This document shows positions 13,050 through 24,237 of a stretch of 64,000 nt of DNA, in pieces (the stretch's first letter is position 1; every line of letters starts with the position of its first letter). The translations under genes were made by a program, and so were the position numbers. The stretch spans positions 435,573 through 499,572 of the IMG/VR virus record IMGVR_UViG_3300049988_000286. The stretch is one strand, 5' to 3'. Origin of the DNA: a virus (Duplodnaviria > Caudoviricetes). The notes beneath the pieces were generated by a model. That model was not told where the DNA came from. It saw nothing but the letters and a program-made list of their open reading frames with translations, and made no database searches.

Positions 13050-13583
13050 CTACGCCGTGCCAGCGAAATCACATGCGTGGAAGGATTGTCGCTCGAAGAC
13101 GATCATCTTCTCACCCTGCTGCACGCTTCGATGTAGCGCAGGACCGATGCTAACCTCTGCTCCCGTCCCGTTCCGATACACGAATTTGCGCAAGCGTCGC
13201 GCCGGTGGAAGCGTCATCGTGTGGTAGGTAGCACCTCGCCGACTATCTCCGAGCCGCTTCGCGATACGCTTCCAAGCGGCATTGTGGCCATCTGCGCGCA
13301 GGGAGGGTTTAGCAAAAGCGATGAGGTGGGCTACCTCGTGGGGAAGGATGCTCTTCGTCATCATCTCCCAATCGCGCAACAGGGCTTCACGGTTGAACCT
13401 TAACGAATATGTATAACCCAAGTCTTCATGAGGTCGCTGCGCCGCCTCTCCGGCCTTCTGGCCCCGGAGATCGAACGATACAGTGATCCTCCCTAAATCA
13501 ACTCCGTATAGTTCCTCTGCGCGTCTCACGCATTCGTTAACCAGTTTCCTGAACTCTGTTTGTGGCCGTAGGCGGTGCTGCAT
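13050..13583 (-). CDS. SprT-like metalloprotease
   Basis: PHEVAHL...GHNAAWK and LRGQKAGEA motifs of the SprT family. Confidence 0.8.
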   Translation of the reverse strand: MQHRLRPQTEFRKLVNECVRRAEELYGVDLGRITVSFDLRGQKAGEAAQRPHEDLGYTYSLRFNREALLRDWEMMTKSILPHEVAHLIAFAKPSLRADGHNAAWKRIAKRLGDSRRGATYHTMTLPPARRLRKFVYRNGTGAEVSIGPALHRSVQQGEKMIVFERQSFHACDFAGTA

Positions 13584-17803: not shown

Positions 17804-17888
17804 TGGTCCCCCGGACGAGAATCGAACTCGCTGATGCTTTCGCAAACAGGCGTGAGAAACCTGCGTCCTGCCATTAGACTTCCGGGGG
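17804..17888 (-). tRNA. tRNA-Glu(CTC) with long variable arm
   Basis: Acceptor CCCCCGG/CCGGGGG, A73, CCA; anticodon arm CAGGT-TTCTCAC-GCCTG; variable arm containing TGC-GAAA-GCA; T arm GCGAG-TTCGATT-CTCGT. Confidence 0.85.
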
Positions 17889-17889
17889 A

Positions 17890-17973
17890 TGGCCGCGCTG
17901 ACGGGAATCGAACCCGCTTCTGCTTTCGCAACAGGAGTGAAAGTCCTGCGTCCGCCCATTAGACTTCAGCGCG
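17890..17973 (-). tRNA. tRNA-Glu(TTC) with long variable arm
   Basis: Acceptor CGCGCTG/CAGCGCG, G73, CCA; anticodon arm CAGGA-CTTTCAC-TCCTG; variable arm TGC-GAAA-GCA; T arm GCGGG-TTCGATT-CCCGT. Confidence 0.85.
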
Positions 17974-18005: not shown

Positions 18006-18069
18006 AGAAACAGAACCAAAATCACCCGCGCCGTCGAGGCGCGTGAAAGCGCACTCAACCGATCGAGCG
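18006..18069 (-). terminator. Attenuator: protector 1:2, antiterminator 2:3, terminator 3:4 plus U-tract
   Basis: 1:2 CGCTCGA-TCGG-TTGAGTG (18069-18052); 2:3 GAGTGCGC-TTTCAC-GCGCCTC (18056-18036); 3:4 CGCGCC-TCGAC-GGCGCG (18043-18027) then GGTGA-TTTTGGTTCTGTTTCT. Confidence 0.75.
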
Positions 18070-18102
18070 TTCGCGTTCCATGAGGGTGTAGGTCGTGTTC
18101 AT
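18055..18102 (-). CDS. Leader peptide MNTTYTLMERERSIG (GAA-CGC-GAA-CGC)
   Basis: ATG 5 nt after TAAATA; same ATGAACACG start as the His/Tyr leader; the 3' end overlaps attenuator helix 1:2. Confidence 0.65.
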   Translation of the reverse strand: MNTTYTLMERERSIG

Positions 18103-22737: not shown

Positions 22738-24237
22738 ATGGTTTCCTCCCTCAATGGTCCGACGAAGATCGGTGATCCGCTGGTCGCTGGTGTAAACGTC
22801 CGCCGCGTCTTCGATGCTCGCGTCAACGCCTACATCGCAACCGCGACTACCTCGCTGACGGTAGACTACACGCTGGCGCTCATCACTTTCTCGAAACGGA
22901 TTGATGCGTTCGCATCATCGATCAAGGGGTTGTGGTTCTACAATTCGCCCGAGACAGCATTGTCGCTGCGAAACTTCATGAATCCCATGGGCACACAGAG
23001 CACGATGGTGGCCAGCGGCGCAACGCACGATCCGGGTTATGGTTGGCGCATCACTGCTGCGCGCGGCTATGTCCGCACGCCTACCGGAATGACGGCACTC
23101 ACCCGCACCACTGCGCAACCCTCACTGGATTGGACCCCCACCGGTAACACCCTCGGAGGGGTGGAAGATGGGTCCGGACCCGACACCTACGATTACGCCT
23201 ATCCGGTTGGGAGCCAAGGAACGAACTTTCGCGTCGTCAAGCAGGATAATCGCCCCACGGGATCGACCAGTTTCATGAACCGAGCCACTTATGCATCGCA
23301 GTCCTACACTCCCGCGCGGACAAACCATATAACCATGTCGGGTAAGCTGGGTGATATTAGCGCCATCTATGCTATCAATGGTCGCGTCGGCCTAGTAGGC
23401 AATAACGTCAACGGAACGCTCTCGTTCACTAACGTCGCTGTGGGCGTCGGAGCGGTTTCTGCACAGTTCGATACCTCAATCGGTGCTCGCCATCCCATCT
23501 TCTACGTCGGCACAGAGTTGACGATTGCTCAAGTCACCACTCTTCATGCCGCCGTTGATGAATACCTACTCGCAACTCGGCCGGGATGGCAGACTACTGT
23601 TGGAATCACCGGCAATCAAACCACTGACAACATGGCGCGCACCATTACCGTGTCATCGATTTACGATCAGACCAATAACAGCAGCAACATCACACAAGGT
23701 GGTGTACTCCGATCGAGGCGCGTTGGCTCTTACTACGATGACGGGGAAGGAAACTCATACTATGAATCCAATGATGGTCAACCTAATCGACAGGTAAACA
23801 CCAGCCCATATCCCTTCGCGAGAGAGCGATTTTGGGAAGCGAAGGTTCTCACCAATACGAACCGTTGGGCAGTCGTCATGTATGGTGTTGATTACTCGGG
23901 TTCTAATTATCTCATGGTATTGTTTAGTACCAATAATAAAATCGAGATTTACTCGAATGTAAACGGCAATAGCACTCTCCTTGGCACCTTCTCGATTACC
24001 TCTATCCTCAATAAGGTCATTCGCATCTGGGTGGCGGCTGATGTACTCTACGTCCGTAATGTGACTGACAACACCATGTTGGTGAACGGCCAGACTCTGC
24101 CTTCGGCGGCAGCATATTTGAGCAATAATCAATCCCCGTATGTGATCTTTTATCCCGTCATTCCCAATGGCGTGCAGGTGGATGAGTACCACCCTTGGTT
24201 AGATGATCTTCGTCTCGGTGATGGAACAGGAGTCTAA
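22738..24237 (+). CDS. Tail fibre / receptor-binding-like protein (paralog of 59677-61212)
   Basis: TAAATA 4 nt before ATG; beta-rich, T/N/G/Y-rich; shares N-terminal RRVF and C-terminal VDEY..DDxRLGxGTG with the paralog in the tail module. Confidence 0.6.
   Translation: MVSSLNGPTKIGDPLVAGVNVRRVFDARVNAYIATATTSLTVDYTLALITFSKRIDAFASSIKGLWFYNSPETALSLRNFMNPMGTQSTMVASGATHDPGYGWRITAARGYVRTPTGMTALTRTTAQPSLDWTPTGNTLGGVEDGSGPDTYDYAYPVGSQGTNFRVVKQDNRPTGSTSFMNRATYASQSYTPARTNHITMSGKLGDISAIYAINGRVGLVGNNVNGTLSFTNVAVGVGAVSAQFDTSIGARHPIFYVGTELTIAQVTTLHAAVDEYLLATRPGWQTTVGITGNQTTDNMARTITVSSIYDQTNNSSNITQGGVLRSRRVGSYYDDGEGNSYYESNDGQPNRQVNTSPYPFARERFWEAKVLTNTNRWAVVMYGVDYSGSNYLMVLFSTNNKIEIYSNVNGNSTLLGTFSITSILNKVIRIWVAADVLYVRNVTDNTMLVNGQTLPSAAAYLSNNQSPYVIFYPVIPNGVQVDEYHPWLDDLRLGDGTGV

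What the first reader, a model, noticed from the sequence alone, without database searches (positions are those of the whole stretch)
17804..17973. Both tRNA-Glu genes have a class II-like long variable arm
Seen: each tRNA-Glu has a 14-15 nt variable region containing the same TGC-GAAA-GCA hairpin, and both begin with C1. Established: bacterial tRNA-Glu is class I, with a 4-5 nt variable loop; long arms are typical of Leu, Ser, Tyr and Sec. Inference: the extra arm may protect against a tRNA-Glu-specific nuclease or modifying toxin, or need a phage GluRS encoded outside this window. The CTC isoacceptor would also read GAG without the wobble-U thiomodification that some anticodon nucleases recognise.
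Basis: partly seen in the sequence, partly recalled or inferred. Interest (0 to 1): 0.7.

Follow-up and report, generated by a model that had tools for sequence, protein, structure and literature searches.

The report
Phage glutamate tRNAs with extra arm
A 500-kb leaf-surface phage encodes two real glutamate tRNAs that carry an extra hairpin arm, which textbooks reserve for leucine, serine and tyrosine tRNAs; the same design recurs in many unrelated phages, and I found no paper describing it.

Summary
ARAGORN and Rfam call two adjacent tRNA-Glu genes, UUC at 17890-17973(-) and CUC at 17804-17888(-). Both encode CCA, start with C1-G72, and have a 14- or 15-nt variable region folding into UGC-GAAA-GCA.

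They are not isolated:
- In this complete 499,572-bp phage, 9-10 of 32 tRNAs of normally short-armed isotypes carry such an arm.
Their arm helix covaries at all five pairs.
- Cultured Klebsiella phages carry one, annotated tRNA-Glu.
- This scan had already noted long-armed Glu, Asn, Lys and Ile tRNAs on other DNA.

No GluRS is encoded in this phage or in three other complete long-arm-Glu phages, so the "private phage GluRS" idea fails. RNA-library contigs of a roughly 92% relative keep the arm, lengthened by a paired C/G insertion, so there is no sign of splicing.

Most likely these are working glutamate tRNAs charged by the host GluRS. The arm is a modular add-on: the adjacent Arg-ACG pair differs by a clean 14-nt indel. 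Its purpose is inferred only. Escape from host tRNA-cutting defences is the leading idea (about 0.3-0.35). It is a new variant of a known kind, of moderate to high interest.

The parts
17890..17973 (-). tRNA-Glu(UUC), 81 nt plus encoded CCA. C1-G72, G73, A8 A9, anticodon at 17939-17941.
   Evidence: ARAGORN; Rfam tRNA 51.0 bits; five-arm cloverleaf by minimum free energy
17921..17930 (-). Variable-arm hairpin UGC-GAAA-GCA of tRNA-Glu(UUC), within a 14-nt variable region.
   Evidence: Read from sequence; shuffle p = 0.003; the helix covaries across 25 related tRNAs
17889..17889 (-). Single-base spacer (U in the RNA) between the CCA of the first tRNA and C1 of the second.
   Evidence: Read from sequence; the relative has two bases here
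17804..17888 (-). tRNA-Glu(CUC), 82 nt plus encoded CCA. C1-G72, A73, A8 A9, anticodon at 17854-17856.
   Evidence: ARAGORN; Rfam tRNA 47.3 bits; fold; compensatory changes in the anticodon stem of a relative
17835..17844 (-). Variable-arm hairpin UGC-GAAA-GCA of tRNA-Glu(CUC), within a 15-nt variable region.
   Evidence: Read from sequence; shuffle p = 0.02. In a roughly 92% relative a C and a G are inserted after 17835 and 17843, giving a 4-bp stem.
18055..18102 (-). 15-codon leader ORF (MNTTYTLMERERSIG) upstream of the tRNA pair, with two GAA codons. Context only; it is the subject of another finding.
18027..18043 (-). Terminator-like GC hairpin followed by a U-rich tract, between the leader ORF and the tRNAs. 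Context only.
   Evidence: scan_promoters_terminators

Best explanation
These are two genuine, co-transcribed phage tRNA genes that decode GAA/GAG. They belong to a widespread, largely viral class of tRNA-Glu. In this class the usual 4-nt variable loop is replaced by a short hairpin arm on an otherwise Glu/Gln-type class I body. Shown: the genes, the arm, selection for its pairing, its occurrence on many isotypes in this genome, and its recurrence across unrelated phages. Inferred (about 0.75): they are still charged with glutamate, by the host GluRS, because no phage GluRS exists. The anticodon loop and the U11-A24 and U13.G22 features of the D helix are kept. From general knowledge, class I synthetases bind tRNA with the variable region facing solvent. 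Inferred (about 0.3-0.35, the leading functional idea): the arm is a modular add-on that changes the shape of the tRNA core, so that host factors which recognise or cut the canonical host tRNA no longer act on the phage copy. Translation of the phage's Glu-rich, GAG-biased genes would then continue during the host's defence response.
For: Gene calls and folds.

Genome-wide pattern: 9-10 of the 32 tRNAs of isotypes other than Leu/Ser/Tyr in the 499,572-bp genome are long-armed (Met, Arg, Asn x2, Cys, Gln, Ile-UAU, Glu x2, borderline Gly).

Modularity: the adjacent Arg-ACG genes are 86% identical and differ by one clean 14-nt indel at the variable region.

The same pattern in bacterial and archaeal genomes gave 6 in 120 loci, 3 of them allo-tRNA-like. 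Cultured Klebsiella phages (KP13-26 and others) and Citrobacter phage Tr1 carry an 89-nt copy, annotated tRNA-Glu in four of the Klebsiella records, and in KP13-26 it is the only tRNA-Glu in the 8-kb array stretch viewed.

Selection on the arm: mean folding energy of variable regions is -3.7 against -0.48 kcal/mol for shuffles, with 24 of 34 at p <= 0.05. In the model-based alignment all 5 arm pairs change on both sides, and the inner three pair in 22-23 of 24 sequences with five pair types each. A roughly 92% relative seen in RNA libraries has a paired C/G insertion that lengthens the stem, plus compensatory changes in the anticodon stem.

Glu identity: the body is closest to Gln/Glu/Asp-type tRNAs. 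It has the same GUCU/GGAC D stem as cellular alphaproteobacterial tRNA-Glu. Identity elements are listed in PMC9976931.

No phage GluRS in 4 of 4 complete genomes.

Defence context: the phage encodes an Rnl1-type RNA ligase and a CCA-adding-type enzyme. 17 of 35 long-Glu loci also keep a normal-armed tRNA-Glu, as expected if the arm has a cost and a conditional benefit. The variable loop is a known target of Retron-Eco7 and Septu and a known site of phage tRNA resistance (PMC13096335). RloC favoured tRNA-Glu when overexpressed (PMC2610378).
Against: In E. coli, absence of nucleotide 47 and the U13-G22:A46 triple are major GluRS determinants, and G1-C72/U2-A71 are weak ones (PMC9976931). A 14-15-nt variable region and C1-G72 depart from these, so charging by the host GluRS is not assured.

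No aminoacylation, modification or cleavage data exist. No tRNA-Glu-specific defence nuclease is known for the presumed host. Published cases of phage tRNA escape work through anticodon-loop changes (PMC10264068), and nucleases that need only the anticodon stem-loop would not be blocked by an extra arm.

Selection for pairing could merely reflect that an unstructured 14-nt loop is harmful once an insertion exists. The RNA evidence is from assembled contigs of a relative in RNA libraries, which may contain DNA.
Confidence: 0.6

Rival explanations
1. Folding or stability aid. The hairpin stabilises the tRNA core of fast-made, under-modified phage tRNAs, or compensates for the loss of U8 (no U8-A14 pair, no s4U8). 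It would have no role in conflict with the host.
For: Position 8 is not U in 15 of 34 long-armed tRNA-Glu genes against 3 of 54 normal-armed ones, and is A8 in both window genes and their closest kin L120, L188, L152 and L176. The loops are mostly stable GNRA tetraloops. The arm sequence is not conserved, only its pairing.
Against: 19 of 34 long-armed tRNA-Glu genes keep U8. The Arg-ACG pair has the same body with and without the arm, so the body does not need it. GNRA loops are just as common in ordinary phage Leu and Ser arms.
Confidence: 0.2
2. Tolerated neutral insertion. Hairpin insertions arise at the solvent-exposed variable loop of phage tRNAs and persist because they cost little. Pairing is kept only because a floppy loop would be harmful.
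For: Clean indel between sister Arg genes. Arms vary widely in length (12-23 nt) and sequence. Arms occur on many isotypes with no significant link to synthetase class (22/296 against 20/378, p = 0.27).
Against: The arm is retained across deeply diverged phage lineages, from 62-kb contigs to 500-kb genomes, and on both Glu isoacceptors here. A compensatory insertion lengthens rather than erodes the stem. The arm is rare in cellular genomes, where the same neutrality should apply. Isotype use is very uneven: none in 158 Pro/Phe/Asp/His genes against 7 of 23 Cys genes.
Confidence: 0.15
3. Self-marker for a phage factor. The arm lets a phage enzyme tell phage tRNAs from host tRNAs. Candidates are a nuclease that depletes host tRNAs, a modification or repair enzyme, or a processing enzyme.
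For: Many isotypes in one genome share the feature. The phage carries a large translation toolkit, including SerRS, a CCA-adding-type enzyme and an Rnl1-type ligase, plus other synthetases according to earlier notes.
Against: Only about a third of this phage's tRNAs have the arm, and several isoacceptors exist in both forms. The arm sequence is not shared between isotypes. Small phages of 60-150 kb with modest gene sets also carry such tRNAs. No candidate binding protein was identified.
Confidence: 0.1
4. Identity switch or non-translational RNA. The arm recruits SerRS, LeuRS or another enzyme so that GAA/GAG is read differently, or the RNAs act as decoys or regulators rather than adaptors.
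For: The phage encodes a SerRS with the N-terminal arm-binding domain. tRNA-Glu(UUC) has G73 and G2-C71, as serine tRNAs do. Allo-tRNAs show that long-armed tRNAs with non-Ser anticodons exist (PMC5389517).
Against: The acceptor/T-stem layout is 7/5, not 8/4 or 9/3. The 3-bp arm is shorter than phage tRNA-Ser arms, whose median is 5 bp in 17 nt. The CUC gene has A73, and the relative's UUC gene has A73 instead of G73. The D arm is Glu/Gln-type with four pairs. These are the phage's only Glu decoders, and Glu is about 6% of codons, so proteome-wide misreading would be very costly.
Confidence: 0.05

Closest known systems
Canonical bacterial tRNA-Glu (class I shape; E. coli identity set of Sekine et al. 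1996 as reviewed in PMC9976931)
   Same: YUC anticodon with A37. D stem GUCU/GGAC with U11-A24 and U13.G22. 7/5 acceptor/T-stem layout and a UUCGAUU T loop. Same D stem as cellular alphaproteobacterial tRNA-Glu.
   Different: A variable region of 14-15 nt with a hairpin instead of 4 nt lacking residue 47. C1-G72 instead of G1-C72. A8 instead of U8.
Canonical class II tRNAs (Leu, Ser, Tyr, Sec)
   Same: A stem-loop variable arm. In size (3 bp, 14-15 nt) it is like phage Leu and Tyr arms, and it has a GNRA loop like many phage Leu and Ser arms.
   Different: Glu anticodons. A Glu/Gln-type D arm with four pairs. A sister-gene indel in the same genome (Arg-ACG) shows that arms are added to or removed from class I bodies, so these tRNAs need not derive from class II tRNAs.
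Allo-tRNAs and other irregular tRNAs (Mukai et al. 2017, PMC5389517)
   Same: Long variable arm combined with anticodons outside Leu/Ser/Tyr. Association with mobile elements and phages.
   Different: Allo-tRNAs have 8/4 or 9/3 acceptor/T-stem layouts and serine-type features, and were proposed as suppressors or regulators. The window tRNAs are 7/5 with a Glu-type body. The Acidobacterial 90-mers found are of the allo type and look quite different.
Phage tRNAs that resist defence tRNases: T5 tRNA-Tyr against Retron-Eco7 PtuAB and Septu (PMC11555353, PMC13096335); anticodon-loop escape variants (PMC10264068)
   Same: A phage-encoded copy of a tRNA that differs from the host copy in a region defence nucleases read. 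For tRNA-Tyr that region is the variable loop.
   Different: No nuclease, cleavage or rescue has been shown for any long-armed tRNA-Glu. Here a whole arm is added to a class I tRNA, rather than bases being changed.
Long-armed Asn, Lys, Ile(UAU) and Glu tRNAs noted earlier by this scan on other phage DNA (e1-227686, e1-4047742, e1-1035274, e1-5148200, e1-1962010, e1-1996640)
   Same: The same design: a class I isotype with an added variable-arm hairpin, sitting in phage tRNA arrays.
   Different: Here both Glu isoacceptors (UUC and CUC) are armed, no normal-armed Glu copy exists, and about a third of the tRNAs of normally short-armed isotypes in the same 500-kb genome are armed.

Membership tests
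tRNA (Rfam RF00005) | Cloverleaf with acceptor, D, anticodon and T arms, scoring above the gathering threshold | tested here: met
   51.0 and 47.3 bits against 29; ARAGORN calls; MFE cloverleaf
tRNA-Glu (GluRS substrate) | Anticodon U/C34-U35-C36 with A37 | tested here: met
   Loops CUUUCAC and UUCUCAC
tRNA-Glu (GluRS substrate) | Augmented D helix: U11-A24 and U13.G22 | tested here: met
   D stem GUCU/GGAC in both genes, identical to cellular alphaproteobacterial tRNA-Glu
tRNA-Glu (GluRS substrate) | 4-nt variable loop lacking residue 47, with A46 in a base triple (a major determinant in E. coli, PMC9976931) | tested here: not met
   The variable region is 14-15 nt. An A is available 3' of the hairpin, but whether the triple forms cannot be told from sequence.
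tRNA-Glu (GluRS substrate) | G1-C72 and U2-A71 (weak determinants in E. coli) | tested here: not met
   C1-G72 with G2-C71 (UUC gene) or C2-G71 (CUC gene)
tRNA-Glu (GluRS substrate) | Aminoacylation with glutamate | not testable with these tools
   Needs biochemistry. No phage GluRS exists, so the host enzyme would have to do it.
Class II tRNA (Leu/Ser/Tyr/Sec) | Variable region of more than 10 nt forming a stem-loop | tested here: met
Class II tRNA (Leu/Ser/Tyr/Sec) | Leu, Ser, Tyr or Sec anticodon and the matching body and identity elements | tested here: not met
   Glu anticodons and a Glu/Gln-type body. The discriminator is G73 or A73 and varies in the relative.
Allo-tRNA (PMC5389517) | 8/4 or 9/3 acceptor/T-stem layout | tested here: not met
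   7-bp acceptor and 5-bp T stem in the Rfam alignment and folds
Defence-evading phage tRNA | Differs from the host tRNA in a region read by a defence tRNase, and resists cleavage | not testable with these tools
   The structural difference is shown. Resistance is not tested and no cognate nuclease has been identified.

The most novel reading that the evidence does not exclude
The variable-arm hairpin is a modular "armour" that phages add to class I tRNAs, here both glutamate isoacceptors. It would make them poor substrates for host tRNA-cutting or tRNA-modifying defence effectors that read the tRNA core or variable pocket, while the host GluRS still charges them. That would be a general, isotype-independent counter-defence, distinct from the known anticodon-loop escape mutations.
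Probability: 0.3. Interest if true: 0.8.

Novelty: new variant of a known kind. Interest (0 to 1): 0.55.

Why it matters
Textbooks and the identity literature treat the long variable arm as the hallmark of Leu, Ser, Tyr and Sec tRNAs. For E. coli tRNA-Glu, a shortened variable loop lacking residue 47 is a major GluRS determinant.

A widespread, conserved class of tRNA-Glu with an added arm therefore raises two questions:
- How is glutamate identity kept?
- What benefit makes phages carry the arm, often next to a normal-armed copy of the same tRNA?

If the arm blocks defence tRNases, it is a new and simple counter-defence principle, and a ready design rule for nuclease-resistant or orthogonal tRNAs. 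Cultured Klebsiella and Citrobacter phages carry such genes, so the questions can be tested directly.

Tried and rejected
- The D-arm pattern AGTCTAATGGNNGGAC in IMG/VR gave 119 loci but no long-armed tRNA-Glu. It mostly hit Gln/Glu-type D arms.
- The search for related loci with the neighbouring 448-aa protein found no relative.
- The window's tRNA region and a neighbouring protein have no match among GenBank phages. Two other long-armed Glu queries also found nothing there.
- Pfam gave nothing for 6 of 7 neighbouring ORFs.
- The hit in L121 to the hairpin-plus-T-arm pattern is the tRNA-like end of a permuted tmRNA, not a tRNA-Glu.
- Model R1 does not separate long-armed Glu from ordinary tRNAs in cellular genomes. 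In four alphaproteobacterial genomes its best hits were tRNA-Ser and normal 75-76-nt tRNA-Glu. A class-wide census was not possible because virus records have no relatives and 'of' needs a genome handle.
- A link between arm carriage and synthetase class was not significant.
- A GNRA loop as a special mark of these arms was rejected, because ordinary phage Leu and Ser arms have it just as often.
- No RtcB or PNK3P family match in the phage.
- Read laying used assembled contigs only. They cannot show RNA ends, charging, abundance or rare processed forms. The flanks of the contigs differ from the window, so they come from a relative.
- Eight literature searches found no description of long-armed Glu or other class I-isotype phage tRNAs. 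The library lacks most subscription journals.

Full report
**1. What is there**

The window is the last 64 kb of a single 499,572-bp virus record. The record has 57% G+C, is rated 100% complete by CheckV, and comes from phyllosphere samples.

ARAGORN calls tRNA-Glu(CUC) at 17804-17888 and tRNA-Glu(UUC) at 17890-17973, both on the minus strand. The Rfam tRNA model matches both end to end at 47.3 and 51.0 bits (gathering score 29). The only departure is an insertion of 13 or 11 nt at the variable loop.

Read directly, both genes:
- begin with C1-G72;
- have A8 and A9;
- have a D stem GUCU/GGAC, so U11-A24 and U13.G22 are kept;
- have a standard T loop;
- encode CCA.

One base separates the genes. 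The variable regions are 14 and 15 nt and contain the identical hairpin UGC-GAAA-GCA. Both RNAs fold by minimum free energy into a five-arm cloverleaf.

**2. It is not peculiar to the Glu genes**

The genome has 41 tRNA genes and a permuted tmRNA. Of the 32 tRNAs whose isotype is not Leu, Ser or Tyr, nine have a long variable arm: Met-CAU, Arg-ACG, two Asn-GUU, Cys-GCA, Gln-CUG, Ile-UAU and the two Glu. Gly-UCC is borderline.

The arms differ in sequence but are all compact stem-loops. For Arg-ACG and Cys-GCA the phage has one armed and one normal gene. The two adjacent Arg-ACG genes are 86% identical and differ by one clean 14-nt indel at the variable region. So the arm behaves as a module added to, or removed from, a class I body. 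It is not a class II tRNA that changed its anticodon. The two Glu genes are 80% identical to each other, and the arm is among their best-conserved parts.

**3. Relatives**

A pattern combining the hairpin and T arm found a 344-kb phage with terminal repeats (L120). Its tRNA-Glu(UUC) is 87 nt and has the arm UUGC-GAAA-GCAA, A8 and A1-U72. The same array holds armed Thr, Lys, Met, Ile and Gln genes.

A general pattern asked for a UUC anticodon loop, then 20-28 nt, then a T arm. Three of those are Acidobacterial 90-mers of the allo-tRNA kind, and one lies in a tRNA array.

In four alphaproteobacterial genomes the best matches to a model of the armed Glu class are tRNA-Ser and ordinary 75-76-nt tRNA-Glu. 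The latter have G1, U8 and a 4-nt variable loop.

Cultured phages also carry the design. An 89-nt tRNA-Glu is 100% identical in five Klebsiella phage records and 86.5% identical in Citrobacter phage Tr1. It is annotated tRNA-Glu in four of the five Klebsiella records. In KP13-26 it is the only tRNA-Glu in the 8-kb stretch of the array that I viewed, which also holds an 85-nt tRNA-Asn.

This scan had already recorded long-armed Glu, Asn, Lys and Ile tRNAs on other phage DNA.

**4. Is the arm under selection?**

- Across 34 armed tRNA-Glu genes the variable region is 12-23 nt, and 30 of them fold into a 2-6-bp hairpin.
- Mean folding energy is -3.7 kcal/mol against -0.48 for shuffles, and 24 of 34 beat 95% of their shuffles.
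- In an alignment of 25 sequences fitted to covariance model R1, the arm helix has changes on both sides at all five pairs. The inner three pairs are formed in 22-23 of 24 sequences with five pair types each. The whole structure beats all 500 shuffles and all slid controls. One caveat is that the alignment was fitted to this structure.
- An independent check comes from contigs in two phyllosphere RNA libraries from two studies. They derive from a roughly 92% relative and cover both tRNAs. In the CUC gene a C and a G are inserted on the two sides of the hairpin, giving a 4-bp stem. Two anticodon-stem pairs change in a compensatory way. Position 9 and the discriminator of the UUC gene (G73 to A73) also change.

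The arm is therefore kept by selection and is present in RNA-library sequence. There is no sign that it is removed, although contigs cannot exclude a minor processed form.

**5. What amino acid, and who charges it?**

No GluRS catalytic domain is found in this genome, nor in three other complete phage genomes (344-425 kb) that carry an armed tRNA-Glu. The control search rings in 14 of 14 cellular genomes.

For glutamate identity:
- the anticodon loop is of Glu type;
- the D helix keeps U11-A24 and U13.G22;
- with the arm removed and the anticodon masked, the body is most similar to Gln/Glu/Asp-type tRNAs;
- the D stem is identical to that of cellular alphaproteobacterial tRNA-Glu;
- these are the phage's only Glu decoders, while Glu is about 6% of codons and GAG outnumbers GAA;
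- a short leader ORF with two GAA codons and a terminator-like hairpin precede the pair, which is the subject of another finding.

Against it, in E. coli the absence of residue 47 is a major determinant and G1-C72 a weak one (PMC9976931). From general knowledge (recalled, not tested here), class I synthetases such as GluRS bind with the variable region facing solvent. That would make an extra arm sterically tolerable.

A serine or leucine identity is unlikely. The layout is 7/5, not the 8/4 or 9/3 of allo-tRNAs (PMC5389517). The 3-bp arm is shorter than phage tRNA-Ser arms (median 5 bp). The discriminator differs between the two genes and drifts in the relative.

**6. What is the arm for?**

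This step is inferred only. The leading idea is that the arm alters the tRNA core so that host factors aimed at the canonical tRNA no longer act on the phage copy.

In favour:
- the design is concentrated in phages;
- it appears on many isotypes with unrelated arm sequences, which suggests a steric role more than a sequence-specific one;
- armed and normal twins of the same decoder often sit side by side (17 of 35 loci for Glu);
- this phage has an Rnl1-type RNA ligase and a CCA-adding-type enzyme, the kind of genes used in tRNA repair;

Against:
- no nuclease for tRNA-Glu is known in the presumed host;
- known escape variants act through the anticodon loop (PMC10264068);
- nothing has been measured.

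The rival readings are a folding or stability aid, a tolerated neutral insertion, a self-marker for a phage enzyme, and an identity switch or decoy. Non-U8 is much commoner in armed than in normal tRNA-Glu (15 of 34 against 3 of 54), which fits the stability reading. The uneven isotype use argues against pure neutrality: none in 158 Pro/Phe/Asp/His genes against 7 of 23 Cys and 7 of 16 Ile-UAU genes.

**7. Comparison and verdict**

The genes work like tRNA-Glu and meet most of its defining features, but they fail the variable-loop and 1-72 features of the E. coli identity set. They share only the arm with class II tRNAs and do not have the allo-tRNA layout.

I found no paper describing long-armed tRNA-Glu, or class I-isotype phage tRNAs with such arms, in eight full-text searches. 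GenBank annotation already labels some as tRNA-Glu without comment.

I rate this a new variant of a known kind. It is real, widespread and experimentally approachable, with an open mechanism.

Noticed in passing
G000:C1:26983-27158 (outside the window): Two adjacent tRNA-Arg(ACG) genes, 91 and 77 nt, are 86% identical and differ by one clean 14-nt variable-arm indel. This is a natural armed and arm-less pair.
   Followed up: partly
G000:C1:61857-61932 (outside the window): ARAGORN calls a 76-nt tRNA-Leu(CAG), which would be a leucine anticodon on a short-armed body. That is the converse oddity to the armed class I tRNAs.
   Followed up: no
G000:C1:102238-102314 and 106351-106425 (outside the window): Two tRNAs with the amber-reading anticodon CUA (ARAGORN labels them 'Pyl') in a 57% G+C megaphage. 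They may be suppressors or a sign of TAG recoding.
   Followed up: no
G000:C1:5580-6716, 98857-99225 and 23853-24173 (outside the window): The phage encodes an Rnl1-type RNA ligase (PF09511, 378-aa ORF), a CCA-adding-type nucleotidyltransferase (PF01743) and a SerRS with the N-terminal arm-binding domain (PF02403). No RtcB or PNK3P was found.
   Followed up: partly
window 17973, 17966-17965 and 17888, 17881-17880; also L120, L188, L152, L176: A8 replaces the near-universal U8 in both window tRNA-Glu genes and their closest relatives. Non-U8 occurs in 15 of 34 armed against 3 of 54 normal phage tRNA-Glu genes.
   Followed up: partly
L121:899-1010 (376-kb phage G002): A permuted (two-piece) tmRNA gene whose tRNA-like part carries a GUGC-GAAA-GCAC hairpin next to the T arm. 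ARAGORN did not call it; Rfam tmRNA_permuted scores 31 bits, below the gathering score.
   Followed up: partly
L294, L323, L347 (Acidobacteriaceae MAG contigs): 90-nt long-armed tRNAs with UUC, GUC, GCC, ACG and AUC anticodons on one shared body, fitting the published allo-tRNA groups. They are unlike the phage armed tRNA-Glu.
   Followed up: no
window 13050-13583 (-): A 177-aa ORF with a SprT-like metalloprotease domain (PF10263, E = 3e-10). It is the only one of seven ORFs around the tRNA pair with any Pfam match.
   Followed up: no
all viral loci fetched: Armed versions are very unevenly spread over isotypes: Cys 7/23, Ile-UAU 7/16, Lys 6/39, Asn 6/42, but none among 158 Pro, Phe, Asp and His genes.
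   Followed up: partly
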